This document shows, one piece after another, positions 6,913-53,309 of a DNA stretch of 64,000 nt. The position numbers were made by a program, and so were the translations under genes. Source of the stretch: Leucoraja erinacea (lineage: Eukaryota); the NCBI RefSeq assembly GCF_028641065.1, contig NC_073380.1, forward strand, positions 89,528,001 to 89,592,000, read 5' to 3'. Below the pieces are notes generated by a model. It was not told where the DNA came from and made no database searches. It saw nothing but the letters and a program-made list of their open reading frames with translations. How positions within the stretch are numbered: position 1 is the first letter of the stretch; every line of letters starts with the position of its first letter.

Positions 6913-7172
6913 TTAAGAAGGAACTGCAGATGCTGGAAAATCGAAGGTACACAAAAATGCTGGAGAAACTCAGCGGGTGCAGCAGCATCTATGGAGCGAA
7001 GGAAATAGGCAACGTTTCGGGCTGAAACCCTTCTTCAGACTGATGGGGGGGTGGCGGGGAGAAGAAAGGAAAAAGGAGGAGAAGGAGCCCGAGGGCTGAG
7101 GGATGGGAGGAGACAGCCCGAGGGCTGAGGAAGAGGAGGAGACAGCAAGGGCTAACAAAATTGGGAGAATTC
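6913..7172 (-). mobile_element. Penelope-like element terminal fragment (pLTR) with hammerhead-like core
   Basis: Homologous to the end of the PLE at 10704-11940. The minus strand reads CTGAAGA-a-gggt-ttca-gccc-GAAAC-GTT at about 7011-7038. Confidence 0.75.
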
Positions 7173-7431
7173 AAACTTTGCTGATCTAAGTAGCTGAGTT
7201 AAGTAGCTATGATTAGTGATAAGAAATCGAAGGTGTTTCAAGTGTACGCAGGCTTTCTGAATGAGTGGGTTGCATTATGGCAGGAAGAGTACAATATAGA
7301 TAAATGCGAGGTTGTCCACTTTGGTTAAAAAAGAACATGCTATTGCGTAGGGTATTGGTTGTTGCCTACATGGACTTTAGTAATGCGTTTGACAAGGTCA
7401 CTTATTTTAGGCTGACCTAGATTAAGATTCA

Positions 7432-7459
7432 CTAGACCAATTGGGACTCTTTGGGTCCC
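7432..7459 (-). mobile_element. Helitron-like 3' terminus running into an assembly gap
   Basis: Minus strand: hairpin gggaccc-aaa-gagtccc, then aattggtCTAG|T. Confidence 0.55.
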
Positions 7460-7617
7460 NNNNNNNNNNNNNNNNNNNNNNNNNNNNNNNNNNNNNNNNN
7501 NNNNNNNNNNNNNNNNNNNNNNNNNNNNNNNNNNNNNNNNNNNNNNNNNNNNNNNNNNNNNNNNNNNNNNNNNNNNNNNNNNNNNNNNNNNNNNNNNNNN
7601 NNNNNNNNNNNNNNNNN
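7460..7617. other. Assembly gap
   Basis: Run of N. Confidence 1.
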
Positions 7618-7839: not shown

Positions 7840-8052
7840 AAAGATGGTCACAATGCTGGAGTACTTTAGTGGGTCAACCAGTATCTCTGGAGGAAATGGA
7901 TACGTGACATTTCGGGTCAGGATCCTCCTTCAGACCTGACCTGAAACGCCCGACACAAATTTTTTCCAGACATGTTGCCTGACCCGCTGAGGTACTCCAG
8001 CAATTTGTGTCTATCTTCGGTATAAACCAGCATCTGCAGTTGGTCTCCACAT
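7840..8052. mobile_element. Inverted pair of Penelope pLTR fragments
   Basis: caatgctggagta...cttcagac followed by its diverged reverse complement (...tactccagca...catctgcagt). Confidence 0.6.
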
Positions 8053-8232
8053 CCAAACACTAACTTTGTCAAAGGGAAGTAAAATACCATTCTGTAGTAC
8101 CTTGAATTCCAGTGTCCTGTGGTCTCATGCTCATACACACAAGTAACTGAGGAATCTGCTTTCGTAACTGGCCAGACTGGGCCATGATAGCTAGAGTCGT
8201 TGGGTCATATGACTCTTGTCTGTCGGGGCTTT

Positions 8233-9939: not shown

Positions 9940-10690
9940 ATTATTTTCAAGTACTGAGGTACAGTGAAAAGCTTTGTTTTCCATGTTATCCACACAGACC
10001 ATGCATAGATGCAATGTTCAAACTCAAGTACAATAGATAAAGAAGAAAATGTAGTGCAAAATATAGTTCTTAGCATTGTAGCGCATCTGTTCCTTGGACA
10101 AAGTCCAATGTCTTTAATGAGGTGGAGGTGAATCAAACACTTCCCTAGCATATTGAAGGACTGTTCAGAACCTTGAAAAGAAGAGACTCGGAGAGTTGCT
10201 GAGTCTGGTGGTGCCCGCTTTGAAGCATTTGTAACATCTGTCAGATGGGAGCAGGGAGAAGGAGGAATGACTGGGGTGGAACAAGTCTTTGATTATATTG
10301 GCTGCTTTTCCGAAGTGGAGATGGAGTCAAAAGTGGGATGTCTTGGCTGTGTGATGTCTTGCAGTCTTGGGCAGAGTTGTTCCCAAACCCAGCTATGATG
10401 AAACCTGACAATATGCTTTCTGTGGTGCATCTGTAGAAGTTTGTAAGTGCCACTGGAACCATGAAGAATTTCCTCAGTCTCCTCAGGAAGGAGATGCCTC
10501 GGCTGTCGAATCTTTGTGGTTGCTCCAAGACAGATCATTGGTTATATTAACACAAAAACCTGAAGCTCTCAACCATTTCCACATCTGCACATTGGAGTTG
10601 ATTGGGCATGCACACAACCATGTTTCCTGAAGTCAATAACTGGCCACTTAATTTTGCTAACATTGTGGGAGACGTTATTGTCCTGTTGCC
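9940..10690 (-). mobile_element. Rex1/Babar-type LINE 3' fragment (decayed)
   Basis: Peptide FLRRLRKF...LTNFYRCTTESILSGFIIAGFGN, the typical Rex1/L2-group C-terminal block. Confidence 0.7.
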
Positions 10691-10703
10691 ATATCACTAA
10701 ATT

Positions 10704-11940
10704 CTCGAAGGCAGACAAAAATGCTGGAGAAACAGCGGGTGAGGCAGCTTCTATGGAGTGTAGGAGTAGGTGACGTTTTGGGTCGTGACCCTTCTTCAGA
10801 CTGATGTGGAGGAGGGGAGGGGCAGGAAGAAGAAAGGAAGAGGCAGAGACAGTAGACTGTGGGAGGGGAAGGAGGGAGAAAGCACGGACTACCTGAAATT
10901 GGAGAAGTCAATGTTCATACTGCTGGGGTGTAAACTGCGCAAGCGAAATATGAGGTGCTGCTCCTCTGATTTGCAGTGGGCCTCACTCTGGCCATGGAGG
11001 AGGCCCAGGAGAGAAAGGTCGGATTCGGAATGGGAGGGGGAGTTGAAGTGCCGGGCCACCGGGAGATCAGGTTGGTTAGTGCGAACCGAACAGCGGTATT
11101 GGGCGAAGAGATCGCCAAGCCTGCGCTTGGTCTCACCGATATAGAGCAGCTGACACCTAGAGCAACGGATGCAATAGATAAGGTTGGAGGAGGTGCAGGT
11201 GATCAGCTGCCTCAGATGGAAAGACTGCTTGGATCCTTGGATGGAGTCAAGGGGGGAGGTAAAGCGACAAGTGTAGCATTTCCTGTGGTTGCAAGGGAAA
11301 GTACCAGGGGCGGGGGTGGTTAGGGTGGGAAGGGGAGTGAGAGCGGAGCTACGGGATATAGAGGAGGCCCTGGTAAGAGCCTCATCTCTTATCGAAGAGG
11401 GGAACCTCCTTTTTCAAAAGAGTGAGGACATCTCCAGTGCCCTGGTTTGGAACGCATCATCCTGGGTGCAGATGCGGCGTAGATGAGGAGTTTTGGGAGT
11501 TTGGGATAGAATCCTTACAAGAAGCAGGGTGGGAAGAAGTGTAGTCCAGATAGCCATAGGAGTCAGTGGGTTTGTTGTAGGTCGGTCAGTAGTCTGTTAC
11601 CTGCGATGGAGACAGAGAGGTCTAGAAGCGGTAGGGCGATGTTGGAAATGGTCCAGGTGAATTTGAGTGCCGGATGGAAGTTAGTGGTGAAATGGATGAA
11701 GTCCATGAGTTCTGTCTGGGTGCAGGAGGTAGCACCAATGCAGTCTTCAATGTAGAGGTGTTCAGGGCTAGGGTCATGGTATGCTTTGAACAAGGATTGT
11801 TCGATGCACCCTACAAAGAGGCAGGCTTAGCTTGGGCCCAAGCGCATGCCCACAGCTACGCCTTGGATTTGGAGGAAATGGAAAAGTCAAAGGAAAAGTT
11901 TTTGAGGGTAAGGACCAGCTCCGCTAGGCGGAGGAGAGTA
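10704..11940 (-). mobile_element. Penelope-like retroelement (RT C-half, GIY-YIG endonuclease, pLTR), 5'-truncated
   Basis: RT-like YIEDCIGATSC...NFHPALKFTWTIS...LDLSV. GIY-YIG LLYIGETKRRLG on the minus strand near 11115-11149. Terminal repeat with CTGAAGA...AAAACGTC at about 10772-10799. Confidence 0.85.
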
Positions 11941-12875
11941 TTTGTAAATTCTCTATCTAATTTCTGAACTCCATCTCATTGTTTGTGGTGTCTTCAGCAA
12001 ACATGTTGATGGAATTGGAGCCGAATTTGGCCGTATAATCGTGAGTGTCAAGTGAGTATAGAAGGGGACTGAGAACGCTTTGTTGCACAGCCTATACTGC
12101 GGGAATGAACACGTCTCTGTTTCCACAATCGACACTTGCTCGCCCATAAATCAATCAGGATTGCCATGTATTGGAGTAACATCCGCACCCGTCTCTCAAC
12201 ATCTTTGCCCTCTGTGTATTTCTTCTGGTCTACCATTAAGTTATTGGAACATTTAGCTTCAGATCTGTAGGTGATACTCCAGGGACGAGGGTTCCTTGAA
12301 TTTGAGCCCTAGAAAACCTGGTCACATCACAAGTTTAAGGGGCAGCTGACAATGCTGCACAGGAGATGTCAAGGGCTTCACATCCTTCTACTGCCTCTCC
12401 TCCTCCTCCCCCTCCTCCTCCTTCTCCTTTGCTTTCCCTGACTGTCTGCCACAATGCTGTTTCCAATGGACAGACAAGATATCAATCAGAAGACCATTTA
12501 TTTTATCTTTCCTCCCCAGCTCTTAACAGATACAAATACATTTTTAATGGTCTTTTTCTTCTTATTTGTCTCCATCTATCCTTCATTTTCAGTCTTTGTA
12601 CTGGATTTACTTTGCTGCTTCAGTTTTAACTGACCTCCTTTCAACTTCATCCAGCTGTGCAAGCAGACTTGCAACCTCTGCTATGATTCTCCCAACTCTG
12701 TCTCGACACAACCAGCAAGATGCCAAGCAGATGAGTAGGCCCTGTTCACATCAGACGGCGGCATATACTGCTGCTAAACCTTTTGGCTTTTGGTCGTGCA
12801 AAAAGCTGCCCATACATTCCTGCTTGAGACACCATATCATCTTGTGATAGATACAGAGCGCATGTTTTTACTATG

Positions 12876-13010
12876 TGTAGGAAATAACTGCAGATGCTGG
12901 TTTAAATCAACGGTAGACACAAAACACTGGAGTAACTCAGCAGCACAGGCAGCATCTCCGGAGAGAAGGAATGGGTGACGTTTCGGGTCGAGACTCTTCT
13001 TCAGACTGAT
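12876..13010 (-). mobile_element. Penelope pLTR mini-element with hammerhead-like core
   Basis: Minus strand: tcagtCTGAAGA-a-gagt-ctcg-accc-GAAAC-GTC-accc...catctgcagtt. Confidence 0.75.
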
Positions 13011-13320
13011 TTTACACCCACTCCTAATTTAATTTGTTTCATTATTAAATAGAAGTTAATTCACCGGCGGTATTGATTTGTTTCAATTTCACCGTGTCTG
13101 CCCGTTTCTGCTCAGCCTTTTCTGACTGTCAAGGTCACGCGGTGTTTTTCCAGTGCGGTTAACACTTTTTAATCTTTCAATTTCGGTTTCAAGATTATTT
13201 TTTTAATGACACTGATGTTTTAATGTAGTGACAAATATCTATACCACCTGTGGGAGGTCCTTTTACTTTTAGGGGAGGGCTACAAACATTTAATAATCAA
13301 GATTGCTTGATTGCTTTGAT

Positions 13321-16154: not shown

Positions 16155-16457
16155 TGTTGACATATATGAAAATATGCTCTCAATTGTAAAGAAGTTAATC
16201 TTAATGTTGTATTGTTACTCAAGACAATCTTGGTGCAGGTAGTGAATGACTGACAATGATAGCAGCCAATAGTAACTGACAATGATAACAGCCAATGAGA
16301 GGTACTGTAATTGATGTGTGAGCAAGTGTGTAAATAAAGTTTCTCTTCCAGTTTGAACAAGATGGATGCCCCACTGTGTTTTTTACTGCTCTGAATTATC
16401 TTCGGTCTAGCACTGGGTAGGCTGCAAGAATCGCTGCACAATGCACCTCTGCCAACA
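16155..16457 (+). repeat. Copia 5' LTR (303 bp)
   Basis: Direct repeat of 19887-20188 (one 1-nt indel seen). Contains a duplicated CCAAT-bearing motif and AATAAA at 16333. Confidence 0.97.
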
Positions 16458-16471
16458 GGTTATGGGCCCAG
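16458..16471 (+). promoter_or_regulatory. Primer-binding site GGTTATGGGCCCAG (internal half-tRNA-iMet type)
   Basis: Immediately follows the LTR. Complementary to the tRNA-iMet anticodon arm (CTGGGCCCATAACC), as in Drosophila copia. Confidence 0.9.
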
Positions 16472-16579
16472 CTTTAGCCAGCTTTACCTAGAGTTACACA
16501 GAGGTACCCAGAGACAGTTACCCAGGGATTTACCACCGAGAGAAACGTCCGGTGAGAGTTAACTTGCTAAGCTAGCACC

Positions 16580-19500: not shown

Positions 19501-19796
19501 CACTACAAGAGTGTATGTACCTAGTACAATTACTAGAAGGTATTGATGGACATCAGTACCCAACACCCAAGGTTTATGAGGATAACCAGGGTACAATTGC
19601 GTTAGCAAAGAATCCTGTAAGTAGACAGAGGTGTAAGCATGTGGACATAAAATATCACTTTGTGAGGTCCACTGTGTATCATGGCAAAATAAGTTTGGAG
19701 TATTGCCCAACAGACCAGATGGTAGCAGATGTGATGACAAAACCTGCAACAAAATTTAAGTTGATGGAGTTTGCAAAGTTTATGTTTGGAGAGTAA
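16580..19796 (+). pseudogene. Copia gag-pol polyprotein (one frameshift at about 18293-18295, RT core deleted at about 19426)
   Basis: Two CCHC knuckles ([28 protein letters not shown]), protease [23 protein letters not shown], integrase HTDLAGP/SDNGTEF/QNGTAER, RT YKARYVAKGYSQ..QMDVKSAY, RNase H STCEAEY/YEDNQG/KHVDIKYHFVR/ADVMTK. Confidence 0.93.
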
Positions 19797-19886
19797 CCAT
19801 GTATGTAAAAGTCTACATGATGTAAGGTAGAAAACCTTAGGATGTTTTATTTTGAGTTAAGATAACAATGCGAGAGCAAGTGGGGG

Positions 19887-20527: not shown

Positions 20528-21220
20528 AGGGCCTGTCCCACTTGCGTGTCCTTGGCATGCAAATTACGCAACCTCGTTGTCGCGTTGAGGTGCACGGGCA
20601 TTGTATGACCACGCGGGGCCGGTGCGGAGAGAAGTGCGGAGGGGTATGTAGTTGTGCGTGACATCGCGCGGGGCTCCGAAATCTTTGCAGCGAACAAAAT
20701 GTTCGCCCGCCAACGGCCTGTCGCGTTGCTGACGGCCAAAGTGGGACAGGCCCAAGAACCTGGCGCGACGCAACGTCTCACCTTCAACAGTAGCAGAAGT
20801 GGGCAAATGATCGCTGAGCTCGGACTGGGGCTCACGGCCGTTGCTGTCTGGATTCGCCCCCACTTCTACTCCCAGAGCGAGGCCAAGTAAATTGAAGATA
20901 GACACAAAATGCTGGAGTAACTCAGCGGGACCGGCAGCATCTCTGGAGTGAAGCAATGGGTGACGTTTCTGGTCAAGACCCTTCTTTCAGACTGAACAAG
21001 AGTCTCGACACGAAACATCACCCATTCCTTCTCTCCAGAGATGCTGCTGGGCCCGCTGAGTTACTTATGCATTTTGTGTCCATCTTCAAATGACGTCACA
21101 CGCTCCATACGGCTGTGCGGGCGAATGAAGTCGCGTGCGACCTTCGCGGGACCGTTGCGCCTCAACACGATCACGAGGTCGAGTAATTAGCTTGCCAAAG
21201 ACACGCAAGTAGGACGGGCT
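20528..21220. mobile_element. PIF/Harbinger-type MITE
   Basis: Imperfect TIRs of about 65 bp (agggcctgtcccacttgcgtgtc... / ...gacacgcaagtaggacgggct) flanked by TAA on both sides. CpG-rich. Confidence 0.75.
20892..21089. mobile_element. Inverted (foldback) Penelope pLTR pair nested in the MITE
   Basis: ttgaagatagacacaaaatgctggagtaactcagcggg... mirrored by ...cccgctgagttact..gcattttgtgtccatcttcaa. The pivot lies at the hammerhead-like core. Confidence 0.8.
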
Positions 21221-22314: not shown

Positions 22315-22560
22315 CCTTGCTGTCTCCTCCCCTTCCTCAGCCCCCCTGCTGTCTCCTCCCATCCCCCAGCCTTCGGGCTCCTCCTCCTTTTCCCTTTCTT
22401 GTCCCCACCCACCCCCGCCCCCGATCAGTCTGAAGAAGGGTTTCGGCGCGAAACGTTGCCTATTTCCTTCGCTCCATAGATGCTGCTGCACCCGCTGAGT
22501 TTCTCCAGCTTTTTTGTGTAACCTTCGATTCTCCAGCATCTGCAGTTCCCTCTTAAACAC
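22315..22560 (+). mobile_element. Penelope pLTR fragment inserted in a CR1 tail
   Basis: CTGAAGA-a-gggtttcggcgc-GAAAC-GTT at 22430-22457. Flanked by tgagt repeats (22310-22314 and 22561-22565). Confidence 0.75.
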
Positions 22561-25544: not shown

Positions 25545-27982
25545 TATTCTAATATTTGGGAAGGGTCTGATTACTCTTTGATGAATACAATTTAAGGTGG
25601 ATGACAGTAAAAAGGTAAGTAGGGCTAGAAATGTTATTGTCTTGGCTTGAGTGGGTCCTTCTAGCTCTGAAGGATTGGCTCCAGAAATGGGTCAGAACCT
25701 GAGACTTGGAGTCTGGTAAGAATGTAAAATCAAACACTTTGAATGATGGTTCACAGGATGCAAGTCATGGCCTAGTTACATTTTATTTGAATCATACATT
25801 TTGTTCAGTGAACATATCATTCCAGTAAAGATCGGATGAAAATAAAATGTTACATTTTTTTCAAATTTGTTATATTGTTTTTAAAATCACATGCTGGGAC
25901 AGATGCTTGGACAATACAGGAGAACTTACTTTAGACAGTATAGCATGCACCTGGAAATACTGCTGTCCTCTCATATGTTGCAGAAGCTGGACTCTGTGGG
26001 GGCTGCTGCTATTAGCTAACGTGAGAATATAACAGGAGATTTCTATGGTAACTGGCAGTTTTCCGATTCCCACAAAATATATACTGATGCTGCCAGGAGG
26101 CACTCAAGAATGAAAGAAGGCATAAATGATTAGAACTGTTTAACTTCTCAAGTACATTGTGACTGTTGAGCAATGGCAGAAAATGTGATATTTGTGACTT
26201 CCTCCTTTCTTTTGTGTATGAGAGAGTATCACAGAAACTCGTCTGAAGACTTTCGACCTGAAACATTGCCTATCCATTCCCTCCTCAGATGCTGCCGAAC
26301 CCTCTGAATTCCTCCAAAACCTTTGTTTTGAATCGCAGAAATCCTGCTTTGTTTGTATGCCTTCACACATAATATGATCAGTTTTCCCTCATGATTGATG
26401 TGCAGGCATAATTCCTTTTATTTAAGCTTTTTTTTTCATTATCCATGGGAGGTAGTTGAGGCTGGGATGATCCCAACATTTAAGATACAGTGAGACAGTT
26501 ACATGGATAGGTCAAGTTTGGAGTGAAATGGACCAAACGCAGGCAGGTGGGACCAGTGTAGCTGGGACATGTTGGCCGGTGTGGGCAAGTTGGGCCGAAG
26601 GCCTGTTTCTACACTGTCTCTATCACTCTATGACTCCATCTGGCTTTCCCAAAACGTGAGTTTCTTGTTGCATTTGTAAGTCGAGCGTGGATGCAAAGCA
26701 GTTTTCTTTGAAATAGTTTTAAATTTGTATGATATAATTTAGATAAAGTGCTTTGTTCTAAAGTTAATCCCTCATTGTTTGTGTATAAAGTAAAAGTTTA
26801 ACATTTCGAGCAAAAATAGCTCCTAAGATTTGAAGCATTTGGCTCGAATGATTGAGGGATAAATATTAGCCAACCCCACGATGTAATAGGAGCTGTACTA
26901 CACCGTCCAACTGAAGATGAACATCTTTACTCAAATGAGCAGGTAGTTTGTGTGACAGACAGGCTGTCGAAATCGACTTGCAACCTTCTGGCTAGGAAGC
27001 TGGCACCCTTACAACGTGTTCAGCCTTTTAAATTCATTAACTTTACAGTTGTATGAAGGAGTTTTGTGATAAATACACTATCTTCTCAGTAAATTATTTC
27101 CATGATATTGTTTTTCATGTACTGTACTTGCTACAGATCCTATCATGTTGCCTATTGTAATTAAAATGAGGATTCTGTGAGGGGTAATTTGCTATCTTAG
27201 TACATTGGCATTCTACTTTTCTCCACTGATATGTATGTATAAAATAACATTGTCACTATTATAAGTGGTGTACAATTTCCCTGTCTAAATTGTGCTATAT
27301 CCAAGGTTATGGTATATCAAAAGAACATTAAAGTAATAGGTTGCCGTACCACAAAAACTGTTCTCAATCATGCTTCATTGAGCAATTATAACCTAATACA
27401 TTGAGGCAGTGGCGGATGTGAAGAATTAATGACTTTATTCTTTGCCTACAATGAAAAAAAATTAAAGATACGGAGACAACAGAGCATTTTGTGACCTCAT
27501 ATACTTTTGTAGTGTGTGACTGCTGCATTAAACGGTTATAGGCAATTGCAATGCTGCCCAAAAAATGCTTTGAACTCCTTATTTTAAAATAATCACAATA
27601 TATTTAGAATCTTGTACTGTTTTATTACAATGGCATTCAATGGAACCTAGAAGATAGAACAGTAGATCACGTGAAAAGGCCCTTTGGCCCATAATATCCA
27701 TGCCGAACATGATGCCAGGTTAAACTAATCTGTTCTGCCAGCATGTGATCCATATCCCTCCATTTCCTGCATATCCATGTGCCATTCTAAAAGCCTATTA
27801 AATGCCACAATTGTATCTGCCTCCACCCCATCATCCCTGACAACACATTCTAGGCACCCACTGCACTAAAAAAAAATTGTCCTGCACATCTCCTTTATAT
27901 GTCCTTCTCATCCTTGACATCTTCACCCTGGACAAATGGCTCTGACTGCCCTATTTGTGCCCCTCATAATTTTACATTCTTA

Positions 27983-29959: not shown

Positions 29960-30797
29960 GTTGGCCGATTAGGAAAAGGGGAGATGCAACGAGACCTGGG
30001 TGTCATGGTACACCAGTCATTGAAAGTAGGAAGGTACACAAAAATGCTGGAGAAACACAGCGGGTGCAGCAGCATCTATGGAGCGAAGGAAATCGGCGAC
30101 GTTTTGGGCCGAAACCCTTCTTCAGACTGAATTCTTAAGGGGTTGGACAGGCTAGATGCATTGAAAGTAGGAATGCAGGTGCGGCAGGCAGTGAAGAAAG
30201 CAAATGGTATGTTAGCATTCATGGCAAAAGGATTTGAGTATAAGAGCAGGGAGGTTCTACTGCAGTTGTACAGGGTCTTGGTGAGACCACACCTGGAGTA
30301 TTGCGTGCACTTTTGGTGTATAGAGGGAGTACAGAGAAGGTTCACCAGACTGATTCCTGGGATGGCAGGACTTTCATATGAAGAAAGACTGGATAGACTC
30401 GGCTTGTACTTGCTAGAATTCAGAAGATTGAGGGGGGATCTTATAGAAACGTCCAAAATTCTTAAGGGGTTGGACAGGCTAGATGCAGGAAGATTATTCC
30501 CGATGTTGGGAGATCCAGAACTAGGGGCACAGTTTAAGGATAAGAGGGAAGTCTTTTAGGACCGAGATGAGAAAATTATTTTTTACACAGAGAGTGGTGA
30601 ATCTGTGGAGTTCTCTGCCACAGAAGGTAGTTGAGGCCAGTTCATTGGCTATATTTAAGAGGGAGTTAGATGTGGCCCTTGTGGCTAAAGGGATCAGGGG
30701 GTATGGATGATCAGCCATCATCATATCGAATGGCAGTGCAAGCTTTAAAGGCCGAATGGCCTACTCCTGCACCTATTTTCTATGTTTCTATGTTTCC
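29960..30797 (+). mobile_element. CR1 3' fragment with a nested Penelope pLTR (about 30030-30130)
   Basis: GRLGKGEMQRDLGVMVHQSLKVG...RPHLEYC...RRLRGDLIET, with a (tatgtttc) tail. Confidence 0.88.
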
Positions 30798-34655: not shown

Positions 34656-34734
34656 GTGAGTAAGTGTACTGTTTGGAATACATTTCCTTTGAATGGAAAT
34701 GGGGAAGTTCTAATTCAGAATCACCTCTTTCAGT

Positions 34735-34906
34735 TTGTAGGAAAGAACTACAGATGCTGGTTTAAATCTAAGGCAGACACACAATGCTGGAGTAACTCAG
34801 CAGGTCGGGCAGCATCTCTCGATAGAAGGAATGGGTGAGTTTTGGATCAAGACCCTTCTTTCAGAGATGCTGCCTGTTCTGAGTTACTGCAGCATTTTGT
34901 GTCTAC
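34735..34906. mobile_element. Penelope pLTR mini-element with a short inverted segment, 80 nt after ATP9B exon 3
   Basis: gtaggaaagaactacagatgctgg...cccttctttcag, then gagatgctgcctg..ctgagttact..gcattttgtgtctac. Diverged flanking repeat cacctctttcagtt/cagctcttttagtt. Confidence 0.7.
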
Positions 34907-35119
34907 CAGCTCTTTTAGTTCATTTGTTCCCAGTGTCAATATTTTCATTCCATTTTAGTAATCACAGTTACTTGGTTAAAGCAACACTTGGACATAATAA
35001 GTTACCCAATCAGGTTGAAAAAAAAATTTACCACTTGCACAATAGGTGCAATAAATAATGTCTGCCAAATCAATTTCTAAAGAGCCGTGTGGTGCTGAAC
35101 TTTGTTTTCTCCAGATGCA

Positions 35120-36725
35120 AATAGACAATAGGTGCAGGAGTAGGCCATTCGGCCCTTCGAGCCAGCACCGCCATTCAATGTGATCATGGCTGATCATCCC
35201 CAATCAATACCCCATTCCTGCCTTCTCCCCATATCCCCTGACTCCGCTATTTTTAAGAGCCCTATCTAGCTCTCTCTTGAAAGCATCCAGATAACCTGCC
35301 TCCACCGGCCTCTGAGGAAGAGAATTCCACACTCACCACTCTCTGAGAAAAAGTGTTTCCTCGTCTCCGTTCTAAATGGCTTCCTCCTTATTCTTAAACT
35401 GTGGCCCCAGGTTCTGGACTCCCCCAACATCGGGAACATGTTTCCTGCCTCTAGCGCGTCCAAACCCTTAACAATCTTAAATGTTGCAATGAGATCCCCC
35501 TCATCCTTCTAAACTCCAGAGTATACAAGCCCAGCTGCTCCATTCTCGCAATCCCGGGAATTAACCTTGTAAACCTACGCTGCACTCCCTCAATAGCAAG
35601 AATATCCTTCCTCAAATTAGGGGACCAAAACTGCACACAATACTCCAGGTGTGGTCTCACTAGGGCCCTGTACAACTGCAGAAGGACCTCTTTGCTCCTA
35701 TATTCGATTCCTCTTGTTATAAAGGCCAACATGCCATTCGCTTTCTTCACTGCCTGCTGTACCTGCATACTTTCATATACTGTTGTGTTCAAGAAGGAAC
35801 TGCAGATGCTGGAAGATCGAAGGTACACAAAAATGCTGGAGAAACTCAGCGGGTGCAGCAGTATCTATGGAGCGAAGGAAACGGGCGACGTTTCGGGCTG
35901 AAACCCTTCTTCCGAAAGCATACTTTCATATACTGATGAAACCTCACATTTATCCGCATTAAATTTCATCTGCCATGCATCTGTCCACTCCCCTAACCTG
36001 TCCAAGTCACCCTGCATTCTCATGGCATCCTCCGCACTGCCACCCAGCTTTGTGTCATCTGCAAATTTGCTAATGTTACTTTGAATCCCTACATTCAAAT
36101 CATTGATGTATATTGTAAATAGCTGCGGTCCCAGCACCGAGCCTTGCGGTACCCCACTAGTCACTGCCTGCCATTCTGAAAGGGACTCGTTAATCCCTAA
36201 CCTTTGCTTCCTGTCTGCCAACCACTTCTCTATCCATGTCAGCACTCTACCCCCAATACCATGTGCCCTAATTTTGCCCACTAATCTCCTATGTGGGACC
36301 TTATCAAATGCTTTCTGAAAGTCCAGGTACACTACATCCACTGGCTCTTCCTTGTCCATTTTCCTAGTTACATCTTCAAAAAATTCCAGAAGATTAGTCA
36401 AGCATGATTTCCCCTCCGTAAATCCATGCTGACTCGGACCGATCTCGTTACTGCTATCCAAATCTTCGACTATCTAATTTTTATAATTGACTCCAGCATC
36501 TTCCCCACCACCGATGTCGGGCTAACTGGTCTATAATTCCCTGTTTTCTCTCTCCCGCCTTTCTTAAAAAGTGGGATAACATTAGCTACCCTCCAATCCA
36601 CAGGAACTGATTCTGAGTCTATAGAACATTGGAAAATTATCACCAATGCATCCACGATTTCTAGAGCCACTTCTTTAAGTACCCTGGGATGCAGACCATC
36701 AGGCCCTGGGATTTATCAGCCTTCA
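35120..36725 (-). mobile_element. CR1 LINE RT fragment
   Basis: NYRPVS, QHGF, YLDFQKAFDKVPH, GVPQGSVLGP, FADDTKL, RPHLEYCVQFWSP. Confidence 0.95.
35783..35917 (-). mobile_element. 135-bp Penelope pLTR mini-element with an 18-bp TSD
   Basis: gcatactttcatatactg at 35765-35782 and 35918-35935. Confidence 0.85.
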
Positions 36726-39694: not shown

Positions 39695-39808
39695 GTCTTG
39701 TATCAACAATTCAAGTTTTTCTTGAATCTTTATTTTCTGGTCGTATCATGTTCACAGTTTGTCCCATCATTGAAGATAGGCTATCTATATACATACTGGG
39801 CTCCTCTA
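39695..39808 (+). CDS. ATP9B: ATP9B coding exon (exon 4 equivalent, TM1-TM2)
   Basis: ttttcag / gtaagt, phase 0. Translates [38 protein letters not shown]. Confidence 0.97.
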
Positions 39809-40213
39809 GTAAGTAAAAATTTGTCTTCTCCTGTACTATGCTTTTAAACTGTTACCTTTGCAAATAATAAAACATTTCTGAAATTATAGAAATTGTAGGA
39901 AATCCAACCTTTAATTGCTTTCAATCGTACACTGCAAATCTTTTTAGCATCTTTTTAAGCAATTTGAAACGAGTGGAACCAGAAATTTGAGGGAATTATC
40001 CCGTCTTAAATAGTAAGACATTTTTAGGGTGTATTTATTTGGTGACAATAAATAATGAGAACAGATTTAAATAGTCATGGAATATATTCTGCAAATGCGT
40101 CAAAACATGATACCATTGAACAACAAATATAAGTTGTGTCAAGCTACCGAGGTTACACGTCATCAAATATCCTGTTTACACTGTAAATAAATTGTTGTGT
40201 TTGTAATAAAAAG

Positions 40214-40438
40214 AAAATGCAGTTGCTGGTTTATACTAAAGATAGATACAAAGTGCTGGAGTAACTGGATCAAGCAGCATCTCTGGAGAAAGTGGATGCG
40301 TGAAGTTGCAGGTCGGTACTCTTCTATAGACTCTTTCACACCATTCAGGGTCCTGGCCTGAAATGTTACCTATCCATTTTCTCCAGAGATGCTGCCTGGC
40401 CTGCTGAGTTTCACTCCAGCATTCTGTGTCTATCTTCA
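40214..40438. mobile_element. Inverted Penelope pLTR pair (older)
   Basis: agatagatacaaagtgctggagtaac... mirrored by ...ctccagcattctgtgtctatctt. Confidence 0.7.
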
Positions 40439-40790
40439 GTTTTGGTTCCATTGATTCCGTCTAAATTATAATCCCGGGGACCCACGCACGCGGTTCTTAA
40501 ATGGTCCTCAAAGTTTATGACCATTCCAAACATCTTCAGTCCTTGAAAATAATTAATTTAAAATAAATTTGTTTCTTTGCCTCACTGGTTTTTCTGAAAA
40601 CTTATGATTGCTTATCCTGGAACAAATTAATTTTAATCAATAGCTTCAGGCCAAAGATTGTGCCTATGTAAAACTCTCTGAGCTGGCATTTCTCACCAGA
40701 GTTGCAAACCAACAGTGCACAGATAAGAGTTTAAATCCTCCCATAGCAGTAGGAGAAGTTGTGAAATAACCCCATTATATTTATTATGTT

Positions 40791-40917
40791 TAAGAAGTAA
40801 CTGCAGATGCTGGAAAATCGAAGGTGGACAAAAATGCTGGAGAAACTCAGCGGGTGAGGCAGCATCTATCGAGCGATGGAAATAGGCAACGTTTCGGGTC
40901 GAGACTCTTCTTCAGAC
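40791..40917 (-). mobile_element. 127-bp Penelope pLTR mini-element with a 13-bp TSD
   Basis: tatttattatgtt at 40778-40790 and 40918-40930. The minus strand begins gtCTGAAGA-a-gagt-ctcg-accc-GAAAC-GTT. Confidence 0.85.
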
Positions 40918-42121
40918 TATTTATTATGTTCTTTTTAGAGCAGGTAGCATTACTAGCTCTTACTCCAAGCCCACTGCAATATGGTTGATTCTTAACCACC
41001 TTCTGAAGGCATTTAGGCAATGAGAGTAAATGCTGACACAACAGCTACAATTGCATCCAGCAAATGGCGTATGGGTTGCAACTACAGGCAACGCAATCTT
41101 TTACAGCTTGGCATGAGTCTGTAATACAAGTTGAAATTTGCAATGCCAGACGAGCATATGCCCAAATGGTTGACTATGACTCCAGCTGTAGCTGTGTGAC
41201 TTTGGTTTGTGATGTACATTCACAAACACTACACTATCAAAAAAAATCCAGGAACTAGAACTATGAAATGAAAACTGAAAATCTACAAATATTCTGCCAT
41301 GCAATATCTGTGGAGAGGGGTAAAGAGTTAATGTTATCTCCTCTCTTTACAGAAGCTATTTGATCTGAGTATATCCACCTTTTCTACTTTTATTTTCCAT
41401 GACTCTACCACATTCATGCATAATGTTTAACTCCAGAAGACTTGTACTGTGAGGCTTTGTCACTGGATTTGTTTTTTTCTGCTGTGCCAACATTTATTCT
41501 TGCTGTCTAATTGCCCATGAAATGAGCCGCGTTTCAGATGGTGGTTAAGAATCAACCATATTGCAGTGGACCTGGAAATACATAGGCAAGAGGAGGTAAG
41601 ATTTCCTGCTCTCAAAGACACAATGCACATGATGGATTTTTACTTACAAATTCCCATGTTGCTGTGGCAGTATTTAAACTCTTTGGGCTGTCCGACTGCA
41701 CCTCTGGATTGCTATTCTCTGAACAAAATTGCAATGCCTTTTTTTTTTCTGTTATTGTTCCCCTTGCATGGCAGTCCATCAGCAACCCAACTTTTCATAG
41801 AAGGTATGCAGCTTGTATAGTAAAACACTTGCAGCTGCAAACATAAGCATATTCATGTTGAAAGTATGATATTTTAAAAACTTCATTAAAGGTCCCAGAC
41901 AGCAGCTCTAAAAATTCACAGCAGCCTAAAATGATTATCTGGATACCTGCCTACTGAGGGTGAGGGCACATTTAAGTACTGCTGTTCCAGACTGCTGTTT
42001 CCTAAGTGATCTCTATTTCATTGCTTGAACTTGAGAATGGTTGAATAAAATACTGCTTGGTACCAATTTTCCATGAGGGGGTCTGATTTGAGCTCAGCTC
42101 CTGTTTTCATTTTAGTGTGGC

Positions 42122-47227: not shown

Positions 47228-47671
47228 CTATTATGTCTTGATATGAGAATGAGATATTGATTTATTGAGCAAAACACAAAGTGCTCGAGGAAATCAGTGG
47301 GCCAGACAGCATCTCTGGAAAGAATGGATAGACTATTCTATGGAAGTGTCCATATGGTCATAATAAAAAGTTAGCAATGTGGTAACACAAGGAGGCAAGC
47401 ATGATCATTTTGTTAATAGTGAAAGATGAGGAAAGTGCACGATATGAAGATGTTAGTTGTGGGACATGCAGCCAATAGATATGTCTCAAGGTGTGCACAT
47501 TGCTGCACTTGTTCCATAGAACAGCCAGTGATGATTTCTATTTCCCCACAAAGTTGAGCTTAAGTTCTTTTTTATTTCTTATGCCTGTCAAAACTTTGTC
47601 ATTGTGTTGGGTGCATTGAAATATTCATCCTTTCAAAGTTCCAAATATTCTTCTCCTTCTCCTTCTCTTCC

Positions 47672-47829: not shown

Positions 47830-50800
47830 ATTTTACTTCGGAGTCACGTGAGTGACTATGTGAAGAACCCCGCCAGGACGCATGCGTGTCATATCGCTAC
47901 ACGCATTGCAACGAGTCACAGCAGGAGGAACGACGTTCCCCTTAGCGGCAAAATTGAAAGCCGGGAACAGCAGGTAAGGAGACTCTGCGTTCCTTCCACT
48001 TACCTTACAGGTGGAGACATGGACCAGATCCACGAAGGCTGCGGGAAAGCTGGCGGGGGAGAACCGCGTAGTTGCGGGCAGCCGGCAGCAGCAGCCAACG
48101 GCACGCCAATCTTCCGTAATGGGAACATCTGTGCCCGACTTCGCTCCCAAAGCAAAAAACCAACAGTCATTGACTCCGATGAGTCTGACTCTGAATAGCC
48201 GCGAGCGGCCAGTGCCCATGCGCATTGCAGCCGGTTGGAACGGCTTTAGGAGCAGCCACGAGCAGCCAGTGCCCGTGAGCATTGGAGCCGGTTGGAGCGG
48301 CTGCTGGAGGAAATACTCCAAAGTGGCAGGCTCCGGGAGATGGAGGCTAGCTACAGTGGGCAGCTAGTAAGCCCCACAGCAGTACCTCTTGTGGGGCTGC
48401 ACAGTGTTTCTCCCTCATCAGAGGGGAGCACGGAGGGTCAATCCTGGGCTGAGTGCTGGAGCAGGAGCGGCTTCAACAGCAGCCACGACGGCCAGTGCCC
48501 GTGAGCACTGGAGCTGGTTAGAGCGGCTGCAGGAACTGAAGCAGCAGCGAGTGGCCAGTGCCCGAGAGCATTAGAGCCAGCTGGAGCGGCTGTTGGAGCA
48601 GGTAAGTGGCAGGCTCCGGGCAATGGAGACTAGTCACCGGGGGCAGCAAGTAAGTCCTACAGCAGTACCTCTTGTAGGGCTGCACAGGGTTTCTCCCTCA
48701 TCAGAGGGGAGTATAGGGGGTCAATTCTGGGCTGAACCTGAAGAGGGGTGCAGAACATACCCCTAGTGCACATGGGGTGCAAGAAAACCTATTGGAAGAC
48801 ACTTACCGTCAGGGAACTGCAAAACACTGAATGTTCCCAGTGTCAACCAGTGTATTTGAAAACCTGGCAGAGCCAGGGACTTGAAACAACAGAAAGTTCT
48901 GAAAGTCCTAACAGTGGGAATTACGGTTTTCGCCCGCACAATAAACAAAAAAGACATGACACAAGATCATCAGGATGCACTGGCTTTATTTTGCAACTAC
49001 CAATACGAGTGAACAGCATTAGAAGAAGAGCCATCCAACCGGCTTTAGACCCTAATTTGCAGGCCTATGCAAACCTGGAACCTCCAAACCACCACTATTA
49101 CTATTTGGAGGCAACTTATCAAAACAGGTAAAAGAACTTGACAAAGAGGGTAAAACCCTGCGGCTCATTAAAGCAACGTCTAAAAACTACTTCCTGGGGA
49201 ATGCGCTAACCCTCAACATCGACCCAACTACAGATCCAGACACCGGCACCTCAACGTCCACGGAGGATGCCGAAAAAGTAACAAACCTACCAATAGTAAC
49301 CATGGAGGTAGGTGGGTCTGGTTCCTTACGAGGTTGGTGGGAGATTACAATTCTATCTGGATGCATGGAATAAATTAACTATTTTCAGAAGTACAGGTGC
49401 ACAACCTTTTATCCGAAAGCCTTGGGACCAGACACCTTTCGTAATTCAGAATTTGTCGGTCTTCGGAATGGAAATTTTTTTGCGTAGATTTTAATGGCTG
49501 GCTCAGTGGTAGAGTGCTCGGCTCATATCCGCAAGGTCGCGAGTTTGCGCCTTGATCCCGGCAGAAGAAGTTGGAGCGGGGCTGGGCTGGGCTGCTGCTG
49601 GCTGTGGGTCTCTGGGATCTCTGTGCTTGCGGTGGGCCTGGTGGTCGACGTCCAATTGGTCCTGACGTCTCCGGTGACTGCACTGACCTGCAGCCATCGC
49701 CGTCGTGAAGACAGTACAAAGCCCCCACGCCGGTGCAATGAGCGGGGAGCTGGAGAGGGGAGGGAAGGGGTCACACACATGGCCGGGAAGCAGAGGGGTG
49801 TAGGTGGGGTGAAACTGAAGGGAGCGACAATTTGCTGCTGCCTGCACGCTGAGTTAAAAAGTTCCCACGCAAGACTCACGATACTGTGTATCGTGTCTAC
49901 CGTGGGAACTTTTTAAACTCAGCGGGCAGGTAGCAGCATATTGTCGCTCCCTTCAGTTTCACCCCACCTACACCCCTCTACTTCCCGGCCATGTGTGTGA
50001 CCCCTTCCCTCCCCTCTCCAAACCAAATGTTCGTGCTTACAGGCAAAGAAAAAATCAAAAGCACATGCTGAACTACAGTGCCCATATAAAAAAGGAGTAA
50101 TGGAGGATATCCAACACGAATCGCAGGAATTCGTGTCCAAAATCTTTATCATAAACTAGATGGTGGTTGCCACATCATCATAGATTTGACTAATTTGAAT
50201 ACTTTCATACTATATATTCATTACTAGATGGGAACCTTTGTTACTGCTAAGCAATTGATTCCTAGGTTACCACATGGCAAGCATCGTATTAAAAGATGCT
50301 TACTATATAGTACCCATTAGAGGTTACCACAGATGTTATTTAACACAATGGATCATCTGCGGTACACCCTTAACACAGTTCACATGTCAGTGACTTTGCC
50401 GAAAGAAAAGGTTACAGCCTTAATGGAGGCTTGCAGCAAAACAAAACCATCCATCAGACTGGTAGCAAGAATAATTGGCATTATAGTTGCTGCGTTTCCA
50501 GCCACACAAATCGGACCTTTACATTATCAAAAATTACAGAGGGCAAACATTCGTGCACTCAAAAAGTATGGGGGTCATTCTGACAGACCAGTGAAGGCTA
50601 CCAACAGAGGCCACAATGGAACTAAAATGGTGGAAACATAACATTAGGCATTGTTCCGTTCCAAACATTATCAGCTATCCGTCTATGGAACTACATACTG
50701 ATGTCAGTGCACTTGGATGGGATGCTACCAATTCCAACTCCAGCTGTGGGGGAGATGGAATGTACAGGAGGCATCATTATTACAAACAATGGGCATAAAC

Positions 50801-52915
50801 TACCTGGGAATGTTGAGTGCATTCCATGGCTTTAAGTCATATTGTTCTGGGTTATATCACCAGCATGTTAGACTACAAATTGACAACACCACCGTGGTAG
50901 CATATATCAACCACATGGGTGGAAACAAATCGACATCATGTGACTATCTGGCCAACACCATTTGGCAATAGTGTATCCAGAGAGATATTTGGATATCAGC
51001 TACCTACTTACCAGGTAAACTGAATTAGTGGCAGACAACAGGTCACGCTAATTCTATGAAAACACTGAATGGATGTTGGATAAGAAATGTATTGCTGAAA
51101 TTACAGCATGGTATGGAACACCAGATATCGACCTATTCGCATCCATGCCCTCACCAGTTATCGAATTATGTTCATGGGAACCAGACCCTGGGGCAGTGGT
51201 ACAGATGCATTTTCACTGCATTGGGGGATTATTTATTTATGCATTCCCTCCTTCTGCCTCATCAGTCGGGTATTTAGGAATATACAGTAGACTCCACGTC
51301 TGGTATTTCGATAGTACCCGATTGGCCTACTCAACCATGGGTCCCGGTGATACACGACATGGTTTTAAAACCATGCATCACCATCCATCATAGACCTAAT
51401 TTATTGGTTCTTCCCGCAACAAGGGGTAGTTACCCATGTCATAATTATATAAACCTATTAATTTATAGAGTTGAAAGCACCTCTACTACACCTGGGACTG
51501 ACGGACCGAACAGTGGATATTATTTCAGCGGCCCACAGACAGTCCACCAAAAAACAGTACTTGGTGTCATCAAGAAATGGGAAGTACTGTCACAACAATA
51601 AACTTCACCCACAGATCTATGAACATCCCGTCTGTTCTGCAATTCCTGGCAAGCCTCCATTACGATGAGAGGCTCAGTCATAGTGCCATCAACTACGCCA
51701 GAAGTGCTCTGTCAACATACCTGTGGCAAGGAACAGAACGGCATTCTGTTGGGACACACCCTGGTAACCAAATTCATGAGGGGCATTTTAATGTTAATCC
51801 CCCAAGAACCAGGTACTCCCAAATATGGGATGTGAGCATTGTACTGACCATGTTAAGAAACTGGTCTCCAGCTACAGCTCTGTCCCTACAGAAACTGACT
51901 ATGAAAACAGTCATGCTGATGGCCTTGGTCACGGCACTAAGGGTCCAGTCACTACAGAAACTAAGGCTGGACAACATGATTATTTCATCTGGAAATTTAA
52001 CTTTTCACATCAATGAAATAGTCAAACAGAACAGCCAGGGGTCAGCAGGCCTAAAAACAGAATTCAGGGCCTACCGGACAGATGGTCGTCTCTGTATTGT
52101 AACACACTTACTATTATATATGGAGGTTACTAAGATCATCAGAGGGAAAGAAATGTCACTTTAATCAGCTACAAACAGCCACTCAAAACAGTGACAGTCC
52201 AGACCATCTCTAGATGGCTAAAAAAGGTCCTAATAAAGGCTGGAGTAGACACTAGCATTTTTTAAATCTCACTCCACCAGGGCTGCAGCTACATCGGCAG
52301 CTATGAAGTTGGACGTTCCTATGGACCAAATCCTCAAGACAACAGGATGGTCAACGGAGGAAACTTTCCAACGACTTTATAACAAACCAGTCATTGAACC
52401 TGGAACATTTGCAGAAACAAATTTAAGTTCTGTAATATAATTTACCCCATAAATAGGGGCAATAATTGGTGTTAAGATATTTATCGTTGGGTTTCAATAT
52501 TGTATTGATGTCTAATGATGTTAACTATATTCTCCCCATAATCAAGGCAGATATGATGCATGGACTCGTTTCCACGGCATGAAATCACAGAGCTTTAAAA
52601 TCTTCACGTAGTCACTCACGTGACTCCGAAGTAAAATAGTAAGATTAAATGAGAACTTACCAGTTTGAAGTTTGATCGTTATTTTATGAGGAGTAACGTT
52701 GAGGGAATGCCCACCCTTGATCATATACTCAACTGGTATCTCTTCTCTAATCTTACTATGTTTAGTCATTACAGTTATCTGTGATTTCACACCGCTGCTT
52801 TGAAGAATGACATGCATGCGTCCTGACGGGGTTCTTCACGTATTCCCTCAACGTTACTCCTCATAAAATAACGATCAAACTTCAAACTGGTAAGTTCTCG
52901 TTTAATCTTACTATT
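47830..52915 (+). mobile_element. DIRS1-group tyrosine-recombinase retrotransposon (decayed ORFs, intact termini)
   Basis: Left ITR 47831-47892, ICR 52601-52708, right ITR plus extension 52807-52913. RNase H LHTDVSALGW and RLQIDNTTVVAYINHMGG, methyltransferase-like PDIDLFAS, recombinase WDVSIVL..LTMKTVMLMALVTALRVQSL..SHSTRAAATSAA..GWS. Confidence 0.92.
49394..50020. mobile_element. Insertion within the DIRS: TA|CAG-starting (Tc1/mariner-pogo-like) truncated element with tRNA-like segment and 270-bp palindrome
   Basis: Start ta|caggtgcacaaccttttatccg, tRNA-like segment 49496-49563, inverted repeat 49751-50020. Confidence 0.55.
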
Positions 52916-53091
52916 AATTGGGTAAAAGTGAGCAACAATAAATGCTTTGGAATGGATGTCAAACCATCAGAGGTATGTTTTAAGGAAGGTCTTAAAACTG
53001 GAGAGATGCATAATGTGATCACAGATCTTGGATACCATGTGGCTACAGGTTGCTCTCATTCTGTAAAGCTGGCCAGCACCTTAAATACCTG

Positions 53092-53309
53092 GTAGACGCA
53101 AAGTGCTGGAGTAACTCGGTGGGGCAGGCAGCATCTCTGGAGAGGAGGAATGGGTGACATTTCGGGTCGAGACCCTTCTTCAGACCCGAAACGTCTCGAC
53201 CCAAAACGTCACCCATTCCTTCTCTCCAGTGATGCTGCCTGTCCCGCTGAGTTACTCCGACATTTTGTGTCTACCTTCGATTTAAACCAGCATCTGCAAT
53301 TCTTTCCTA
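53092..53309. mobile_element. Foldback Penelope pLTR dimer with a 15-bp TSD
   Basis: caccttaaatacctg at 53077-53091 and 53310-53324. Two inverted pLTR arms join at the hammerhead-like core. Confidence 0.87.

What the first reader, a model, noticed from the sequence alone, without database searches (positions are those of the whole stretch)
6913..53309. Dispersed family of 130-220 bp hammerhead-bearing mini-retroelements with long TSDs
Seen: at least 10 short copies of a Penelope terminus (about 7020, 7900, 10790, 12990, 20980, 22440, 30110, 34850, 35900, 40370, 40900, 53180). The better-preserved copies read CTGAAGA-A-GGGT-(TTCG/CTCG)-(G/A)CCC-GAAAC-GT(C/T). Three are discrete insertions with exact TSDs: 18 bp (35765/35918), 13 bp (40778/40918) and 15 bp (53077/53310). 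Two subfamilies keep stem II paired with different tetraloops. Established: Penelope pLTRs carry minimal type I hammerheads with a palindromic ACGU stem III that can cleave as dimers. Inference: these may be a retrozyme-like non-autonomous family driven by the local GIY-YIG PLE, seeding ribozyme cores through ATP9B introns. Caveat: the visible stem I is only about 2 bp.
Basis: partly seen in the sequence, partly recalled or inferred. Interest (0 to 1): 0.75.

Follow-up and report, generated by a model that had tools for sequence, protein, structure and literature searches.

The report
Fixed-length end copies of Penelope retroelement
These short repeats in the introns of an animal gene are tail-end copies of a Penelope-like jumping gene, and most begin at one fixed point just before a small, usually decayed ribozyme motif; they are likely dead by-products of the parent element's copying rather than a self-cutting mobile family of their own.

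Summary
The repeats are real: 20 arms at 15 loci, and the three TSDs (18, 13, 15 bp) are exact. All are the 3' end module (minimal type I hammerhead core, about 65 nt, optional ~33-nt tail) of a Neptune-type Penelope-like element (PLE); the local PLE is a dead fragment. Five loci are head-to-head pairs, 4 of 5 with the tail on one arm only, the published PLE signature. The retrozyme reading fails: no tandem units in the window, copies keep the cut site intact, only 1 of 20 arms has a perfect motif, no compensatory change, short copies are spread over three subfamilies, and only 1 of 7 arms on the host gene's sense strand keeps the core. What survives is a discrete size class: 11 of 20 arms start within -6..+5 of the core, and in public runs depth falls to 6-10% (3 of 4 runs) just upstream. 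That edge coincides with a pyrimidine tract + CAG, placed like the D. virilis Penelope intron end, and with an initiator-like motif. Most likely these are run-off or stalled cDNAs. Known kind, one testable clue on PLE replication.

The parts
6909..7174 (-). Longer PLE 3'-end copy (subfamily B): last ~20 nt of ORF, GTAG-like site, 111-nt pyrimidine tract, CAG, the only perfect minimal hammerhead (7009-7040; predicted cut between 7011 and 7010), tail
7851..8056 (.). Old head-to-head pair: left arm (-) without tail, right arm (+) with tail; cores broken or missing
10693..11930 (-). Dead 5'-truncated PLE remnant: end of RT, thumb, CX4CxxC linker, GIY-YIG endonuclease, stop at 10889, 87-nt pyrimidine tract, CAG, hammerhead with G12 to A, short 3' end. 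The 5' limit (about 11930) is read by eye
12872..13009 (-). Short copy (subfamily A) with tail; starts at -5; core intact, A.C mismatch in stem II; possible 6-bp TSD (12866/13010; 6-bp matches arise by chance in 17% of random pairs)
20887..21090 (.). Head-to-head pair, both arms without tail, joined at the imperfect palindrome that spans the CAG and the start of the core
22316..22560 (+). Longer copy (subfamily B) with pyrimidine tract; the only arm on the host gene's sense strand with an intact core; G.G mismatch in stem II; 5-bp flank repeat at chance level
26241..26328 (+).
30030..30158 (-). Short copy without tail (30030-30135; G12 to A) plus a filler of about 25 nt of LINE-like sequence at its 5' junction, all inside a 15-bp duplication (30018/30159, of which 3 nt are shared with the element end)
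34734..34909 (.). Head-to-head pair just after exon at 34505-34655: left arm (-) with tail, starts at -1; right arm (+) short, starts at about +46
35783..35917 (-). Short copy (subfamily B) with tail, 18-bp TSD (35765-35782, 35918-35935); starts at +5 behind a 6-nt stub, so the CUG of the core is missing
40207..40437 (.). Old head-to-head pair with 14-nt spacer; left arm with tail starts at -3; right arm without tail starts at +8
40791..40917 (-). Short copy with tail, 13-bp TSD (40778-40790, 40918-40930); starts at -2/-3; core intact, A.C mismatch in stem II
47272..47331 (-).
53092..53309 (.). Head-to-head pair inside a 15-bp TSD (53077-53091, 53310-53324): left arm (-) without tail starts at -2, right arm (+) with tail starts in stem II
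252..318 (-). Decayed tail-bearing fragment without core (weak match, E 4.8e-05)
6656..6830 (+). Exon of the host ATP9-type P4-ATPase gene (AG/GT bounded); further exons at 34505-34655, 39695-39808 and from about 43019
   Evidence: assignment to ATP9B rather than ATP9A is recalled, not tested

Best explanation
The repeats are 3'-terminal pieces of a Neptune-type Penelope-like element, most of them starting at one fixed edge just upstream of the hammerhead core, and they are likely dead-on-arrival products of the parent element's reverse transcriptase and GIY-YIG endonuclease. Shown: the module is the end of the PLE; insertions have TSDs; there are two 3' ends about 33 nt apart; many insertions are head-to-head pairs with one tail; the cut site lies intact inside the copies; the 5' ends cluster at -6..+5. 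Taken from the literature (PAc in vitro, PMC11167929): the enzyme cuts and extends both target strands, starts reverse transcription at two internal sites in the RNA that make the tail, and uses uncleaved RNA. Inferred: cDNA starts at one of the two tail sites, copies 95 or 130 nt through the uncut hammerhead and stops at the CAG in front of stem I; if both target strands are primed the two cDNAs join head to head, often through short palindromes; otherwise the cDNA end joins the target by microhomology or a local filler. Inferred cause of the edge: the template RNA begins there (promoter start or processing; about 0.5), a protein bound at the pyrimidine tract/CAG blocks the enzyme (about 0.3), or the joining step trims there (about 0.2). 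After insertion the motif decays and is predicted not to cleave.
For: Same module ends the 1.2-kb RT/GIY-YIG remnant at 10693-11930. Two 3' ends in the window and in all 4 public runs laid (loose ends at 6912 and 6943-6946). Tail on one arm in 4 of 5 pairs, as described for PLE insertions. 11 of 20 arms start at -6..+5 of C3; binomial P about 3e-8 against the best-case geometric truncation, 6e-7 after x20 for window choice. Depth at 7046 is 6%, 10% and 10% of that at 7010-7030 in X1, X7, X22 and does not fall further up to 7177; the largest listed 5'-side loose end in X1 (165 contigs) and X22 (281 reads) is at 7040 (-2) with mixed flanks, agreement 0.33-0.34. Short copies occur in three subfamilies, and short B copies group with the long copies (branch 97/95). 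1 of 20 arms has a perfect motif; G12 reads A, at a CpG, in 4 of the 17 arms aligned. The active dimer fold lies 19 kcal/mol or more above the best dimer fold in 5 of 5 motif-bearing arms tested. 95% (X22) and 86% (X23) of RNA reads run on into unlike sequence, as passengers of host transcripts would.
Against: No autonomous full-length element or whole genome was available, so the parent is inferred. In X23 depth at 7046 is still 31%, and its listed 5'-side loose ends (7045, 7050) are purine-rich rather than mixed; 7040 is not among the six rows listed for X7 or X23 (1310 rows not shown). Contig depths are not copy numbers, and the 88% likeness filter drops tracts of other subfamilies, which deepens the step. 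The 5' ends in the window were curated by eye, arms of one pair are not independent, and the 11-nt window was chosen after seeing the data. A fixed-length class is also what a SINE-like family would give. Head-to-tail dimers of the 131-nt unit exist in DNA runs (5 contigs each in X1 and X7). Stem changes between subfamilies keep pairing (U-A versus U.G in 3 to 4 pairs), which fits selection on the motif in the parents. Folding energies ignore the tertiary core and protein help.
Confidence: 0.75

Rival explanations
1. SINE-like non-autonomous family: the 130-nt unit carries its own start site (initiator-like TCAGT at the edge) and the protein-binding and initiation sites, so short copies are transcribed and copied again in trans by the PLE enzyme, without need for ribozyme cleavage.
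For: Discrete 5' edge and two discrete 3' ends; very high abundance (103,765 and 72,562 contigs laid in X1 and X7; 7,546 of 7.3 million reads in X22); PAc accepts 5'-truncated RNA and needs only about 170 nt; pLTRs mobilise other sequence in trans in A. vaga; subfamily A has no long copy among its 6 arms in the tree.
Against: Short copies sit in three subfamilies and are 94-95% identical to long copy 7020 in subfamily B; no pile-up of RNA starts (weak test); in D. virilis the start site is 46 nt upstream of the intron, not at the hammerhead; the promoter-like matches are short and overlap the ribozyme core.
Confidence: 0.15
2. Retrozyme-like family: transcripts are cut by dimeric hammerheads, circularised and reinserted by the PLE enzyme.
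For: Minimal type I core with ACGU palindrome; long TSDs; rare head-to-tail joints of the 131-nt and 97-nt units in DNA runs (7042 to 6912 in 5 contigs each of X1 and X7; 7038 to 6942 in 1 contig of X7); Li et al. propose that animal retrozymes arise from PLE ends.
Against: 0 of 15 loci are head-to-tail; copies begin about 30 nt upstream of the cut site, which a cleaved linear monomer cannot give; only 1 of 20 arms starts near the cut site; 0 of 8 pairs compensatory; the tandem joint has no RNA support in X22 or X23; minimal PLE hammerheads cleave poorly or not at all without protein, and 8 of 9 Xenopus dimers did not cleave.
Confidence: 0.05
3. Plain random 5' truncation, with the apparent edge caused by failure to align the low-complexity tract.
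For: PLE copies are known to be heavily 5'-truncated; the tract differs between subfamilies (about 75% identity); X23 shows purine-rich loose ends at 7045-7050.
Against: In the window the edge is fixed by TSDs and junctions, not by alignment (40900, 12990, 30110, 53180, 20980); depth drops before the tract begins and stays level to 7177; P about 6e-7.
Confidence: 0.05

Closest known systems
5'-truncated insertion units of endonuclease-positive Penelope-like elements, Neptune type (Craig et al. 2021 PMC8557442; Arkhipova et al. 2013 PMC3846280; Frangieh et al. 2024 PMC11167929)
   Same: 3' module with hammerhead in the pLTR; heavy 5' truncation; adjacent inverted truncated copy; optional 30-40 bp tail on one end; TSDs; palindromes at inverted junctions; Cys-rich linker before GIY-YIG.
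   Different: Most copies here stop at one edge (-6..+5 of the core) instead of a spread of lengths; I did not find this stated in the passages read. TSDs here (13-18 bp) are longer than the 8-10 bp quoted for A. vaga.
Minimal type I hammerheads of metazoan PLEs (Cervera and de la Pena 2014 PMC4209133)
   Same: CUGANGA core, extra base before G10.1, G10.1-C11.1 pair, palindromic 15.2-16.2 with no loop 3; thousands of single motifs ascribed to truncated PLEs; pairs on opposite strands 100-700 bp apart. The D. virilis variant has a 2-bp helix I whose 5' end maps to the intron end, as the CAG does here.
   Different: Stem II is 4 bp (7-8 bp in S. mansoni) and stem I 2 bp (4-5 bp in S. mansoni); cleavage untested here.
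Non-LTR retrozymes of animals (Cervera and de la Pena 2020 PMC7229834; Li et al. 2026 bioRxiv 10.64898/2026.07.22.740005)
   Same: Small, non-coding, type I hammerhead, PLE-related, TSDs longer than 4 bp.
   Different: Retrozymes are head-to-tail tandems, mostly with canonical hammerheads, expressed as circular RNA; here copies are single or head-to-head, tandem units are rare, the motif is minimal and mostly broken, and no circular RNA is shown.

Membership tests
EN+ Penelope-like element (Neptune type), truncated insertion | Module is the 3' end of an element with PLE RT and C-terminal GIY-YIG endonuclease | tested here: met
   Remnant 10693-11930: RT motifs read by eye; Atlas features match GIY-YIG clusters at 0.96-0.97, where 13-56% of members carry PF01541. 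Pfam gave no hit at E<=0.001.
EN+ Penelope-like element (Neptune type), truncated insertion | Cys-rich CX2-5CxxC linker between RT and EN (Neptune/Nematis) | tested here: met
   CX4CxxC before the GIY-YIG motif; definition. Neptune versus Nematis not separated by a tree.
EN+ Penelope-like element (Neptune type), truncated insertion | Optional 30-40 bp tail | tested here: met
   Two 3' ends 31-34 nt apart in 4 of 4 runs; tail on one arm in 4 of 5 pairs.
EN+ Penelope-like element (Neptune type), truncated insertion | Adjacent inverted 5'-truncated copy and TSD | tested here: met
   5 of 15 loci are head-to-head pairs; 4 of 14 loci searched have a flank duplication of 13 bp or more.
EN+ Penelope-like element (Neptune type), truncated insertion | Spliceosomal intron in the pLTR | tested here: inconclusive
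   AG/GTAG at the stop codon, 83-85% pyrimidine tract and CAG in 3 of 3 long copies (the donor-like site is whole only in 10790); no spliced joint among the 15 of 158 joints shown.
Minimal type I hammerhead of PLEs | Conserved core, stem II, palindromic stem III, short stem I | tested here: met
   Whole in 1 of 20 arms, nearly whole in 4 more; 91% of cells paired in 10 copies.
Minimal type I hammerhead of PLEs | Compensatory base changes in stems | tested here: not met
   0 of 8 pairs with a change on both sides in 10 copies; only one-sided U-A/U.G type changes. Small sample.
Minimal type I hammerhead of PLEs | Self-cleavage as dimer or with the element's protein | not testable with these tools
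   Needs an in vitro assay; no pile-up of read ends at 7010/7011 in two RNA runs is a weak test.
Non-LTR retrozyme | Head-to-tail tandem of two or more units, each with a hammerhead | tested here: not met
Non-LTR retrozyme | Unit RNA bounded by ribozyme cuts, accumulating as circular RNA | tested here: inconclusive
   DNA copies are bounded by the CAG edge and the tail, not by the cut site; poly(A) and single-cell libraries cannot show small circles.
Non-LTR retrozyme | No coding capacity, TSD longer than 4 bp | tested here: met
   Units of 95-135 nt; TSDs 13-18 bp. Shared with truncated PLE copies, so not diagnostic.
SINE-like non-autonomous derivative | Own lineage of short copies with own transcription start | tested here: inconclusive
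   Short copies are not one clade among 16 arms (4 of 20 arms too short for the tree); start site not measurable with these runs.

The most novel reading that the evidence does not exclude
The PLE transcript has a defined 5' end at the first base of hammerhead stem I, so internal priming at the tail makes a fixed 95- or 130-nt run-off cDNA, a Penelope counterpart of retroviral strong-stop DNA. Most such cDNAs integrate directly and make up the great majority of copies; some jump to the tail of another RNA, which builds the pLTR and partial tandems, and the rare head-to-tail dimers of the 131-nt unit are retrozymes at birth.
Probability: 0.25. Interest if true: 0.7.

Novelty: new member of a known kind. 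Interest (0 to 1): 0.33.

Why it matters
As a family of elements this is ordinary: dispersed single and inverted hammerhead motifs from truncated PLEs were described in 2014. The useful part is the sharp 5' edge. How PLEs build their pseudo-LTRs, keep their introns and use their ribozyme is still open; tens of thousands of copies that end at one spot, which is at once the stem I edge, a splice-acceptor-like CAG and an initiator-like motif, make the question testable by 5' RACE and by the existing in vitro PLE assay. The claimed effect on the host gene is unlikely, since almost no intact core lies on its sense strand.

Tried and rejected
Whole-genome census: no genome is held for this window; replaced by one lay of 4 of 24 listed runs on the 7020 copy. 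No RNA holder was listed for 10600-13100 (no evidence either way). A 31-nt core pattern found nothing in viral or metagenome contigs. Rfam gave only chance microRNA-type hits on hairpins. Single-strand folds of 6 copies are no more stable than shuffles and none shows the hammerhead fold. Idea that 7020 and 22440 both start at the splice-donor-like site: rejected for 7020, which aligns about 20 nt further into the ORF end (to 7174). Idea that short copies come from spliced mRNA: rejected, because no copy in the window carries the ORF-end exon joined to the core, loose ends at 7040 are mixed, and no such joint is among those shown (143 joints not shown). Ribozyme-cut template: rejected, 1 of 20 arms starts near the cut. 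DPE match to the Penelope motif quoted: 5 of 8 letters, offset by 3 nt, inside the ribozyme core; lead only. Antisense excess of single copies (8 of 10) is not significant by itself (two-sided binomial about 0.11, my arithmetic). Lunse et al. 2017 is not held. Look-ups of earlier findings by place and by sequence were empty.
Full report
1. Observation. The three TSDs are exact (18, 13, 15 bp) and a fourth duplication of 15 bp surrounds the 30110 copy (14 of the 15 loci were searched). Matches of 13 bp or more occurred in about 0.07% of 3000 random flank pairs drawn, of 15 bp or more in none; 5- and 6-bp matches are at chance level (51% and 17%), so the short flank repeats at 12990 and 22440 prove nothing. 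The description needs correcting: of the 12 loci, 4 are simple short copies (12990, 30110, 35900, 40900), 5 are head-to-head pairs (7900, 20980, 34850, 40370, 53180), 2 are longer copies with the pyrimidine-rich part of the pLTR (7020, 22440), and 1 is the 1.2-kb PLE remnant.

2. Parent. On the minus strand, 11930 to 10693 reads the end of an RT, a thumb, a CX4CxxC linker, a GIY-YIG endonuclease, a stop codon, an 87-nt pyrimidine tract, CAG, the hammerhead core and a short 3' end. Atlas features match GIY-YIG clusters at 0.96-0.97 (13-56% of members carry the family); Pfam gave no hit. The Cys linker marks Neptune or Nematis (passage). The remnant is 5'-truncated, has stops and frameshifts, and has G12 changed to A; it cannot have driven anything itself. 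No full-length parent was available.

3. The PLE insertion signature. Copies end at two 3' positions, about +93 and +128 from C3. In four public runs laid on the 7020 copy the loose 3' ends fall at 6912 and 6943-6946, 31-34 nt apart, in 4 of 4 runs. This is the optional 30-40 bp tail (PMC8557442, passages; PMC3846280, parts 1-4 of 5), which for the anole element PAc equals the distance between two internal start sites of reverse transcription (PMC11167929, parts 1-2 of 4). In 4 of 5 pairs only one arm has the tail. PAc cuts and extends both target strands, which offers a route to such pairs; A. vaga shows palindromes at inverted junctions, and here the 20980 pair is joined at the palindrome across the CAG and the 53180 pair at stem II. 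Cervera and de la Pena (PMC4209133, parts 1-2 of 4) already report thousands of single minimal hammerheads per genome, ascribed to truncated PLEs, and pairs on opposite strands 100-700 bp apart.

4. The ribozyme motif. The layout is a minimal type I hammerhead: 2-bp stem I, CUGAAGA, an extra A, 4-bp stem II, GAA, ACGU, cut site. It is whole in 1 of 20 arms (7020); 4 more keep the core with a stem defect; the rest are broken or lack the core, including the copy with the 18-bp TSD (by eye). In 10 copies aligned, 91% of cells pair, 0 of 8 pairs show a compensatory change, and the subfamily differences are one-sided U-A/U.G, which fits selection in the parents and decay in the copies. The active dimer fold is -7.1 kcal/mol for 7020 against -26.3 for the best dimer, and -1.8 to +7.7 for the other 4 tested (no tertiary or protein term). 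Minimal PLE hammerheads cleave weakly as dimers (review passages), and that of PAc only with protein; its cleavage is not needed for insertion. The host gene runs on the + strand (four AG/GT-bounded exons; best solved relative ATP9A, E 2.4e-13; the name ATP9B is recalled). 8 of 10 single-arm copies are antisense to it, and 1 of 7 sense-strand arms keeps the core. Seeding of working ribozymes into this pre-mRNA is not supported.

5. Retrozyme test. Animal retrozymes are head-to-tail tandems with a hammerhead in each unit (PMC7229834, passages; Li et al. bioRxiv 2026, parts 1-3 of 5; its supplements are closed and may list families from this group of animals). None of 15 loci is such a tandem. 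The copies start about 30 nt upstream of the cut site and hold it intact, so their template was uncut. In a tree of 16 of the 20 arms, short copies fall in three groups, and short B copies sit with the three long copies on a branch supported 97/95; most other branches are weak. The short form therefore recurs in each subfamily. They are rare but are the kind of seed Li et al. propose.

6. What is left: a sharp 5' edge. 11 of 20 arms start at -6..+5 of C3, 6 start inside or behind the core, 3 run on upstream; P about 3e-8 against the most favourable geometric truncation, 6e-7 after a factor 20 for choosing the window (ends curated by eye, paired arms not independent). In runs, depth at 7046 is 6% (X1), 10% (X7), 10% (X22) and 31% (X23) of that at 7010-7030, and stays level to 7177. 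The largest listed 5'-side loose end in X1 and X22 is at 7040, the G at -2, with mixed flanks; X7 and X23 do not list it among their six rows, and X23 lists purine-rich ends at 7045-7050, which I ascribe to oligo-dT priming on the antisense tract (inference). Contig depth is not copy number and the 88% filter deepens the step, but in the window the edge is fixed by TSDs and junctions.

7. Cause of the edge. Three features coincide there: the 5' strand of stem I; a CAG after an 83-85% pyrimidine tract, with a donor-like AG/GTAG at the stop codon, placed like the D. virilis Penelope intron, whose end maps to the 5' end of helix I and whose start site lies 46 nt upstream of the intron (PMC2377424, passages); and an initiator-like TCAGT (consensus recalled) inside a 9-nt palindrome. 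A spliced template is unlikely, since no copy carries the upstream exon joined to the core. I rank an RNA 5' end at 0.5, a protein roadblock at the tract at 0.3 and trimming at joining at 0.2; none is shown. The RNA runs gave no pile-up of starts or ends, a weak test with 6% and 1% of two fragmented libraries read.

8. Novelty. Eight literature searches gave no paper that states a fixed 5' edge of PLE copies at stem I; subscription journals, Repbase, Lunse et al. 2017 (not held) and Fig. S2 of Frangieh et al. (figure not held; text search of its supplements empty) could not be seen and may bear on this. Earlier notes of this scan describe the same edge and the same pairs in other genomes; they are unchecked and not independent support, but they show the pattern is not special to this window. 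Verdict: new member of a known kind; interest 0.33. The boldest reading not excluded is a strong-stop-like intermediate that both floods the genome with fixed-length copies and seeds retrozymes (probability 0.25, interest 0.7).

Noticed in passing
window 16222-20188: Copia-type LTR retrotransposon with two 236-bp repeats that are 100% identical and gag, protease-like and integrase domains; pol is split over two frames and the RT part looks shortened. A recent insertion.
   Followed up: no
window 30136-30158: A filler of about 25 nt of LINE-like sequence lies between the 5' end of the 30110 copy and its right TSD, and resembles sequence about 350 bp downstream: a likely local template switch during 5' joining.
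   Followed up: partly
runs X1 and X7 laid on window 6912-7042: Head-to-tail joints of the 131-nt unit (5 contigs each) and of the 97-nt unit (1 contig, X7); the joint fits tail end joined to the -4..-2 edge.
   Followed up: partly
window 7010-7030 and 22438-22455: In subfamily B the stem II loop can pair with the GAAA core in a 6-bp hairpin that competes with the hammerhead fold; recurring joints 7028-7032 to 6998-7001 in DNA runs lie at this near-palindrome (kind of joint not printed).
   Followed up: partly
window 49751-50020 and ORFs 50321-52164: A 110-nt inverted repeat at 95% followed by ORF pieces that look like a DIRS-type RT and tyrosine recombinase (resemblance recalled, not tested).
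   Followed up: no
window 61297-61596 and 62662-62961: A 300-bp direct repeat at 100% identity, 1365 bp apart: recent duplication or assembly artefact.
   Followed up: no
window 24984-25334: Array of about 48-bp units.
   Followed up: no
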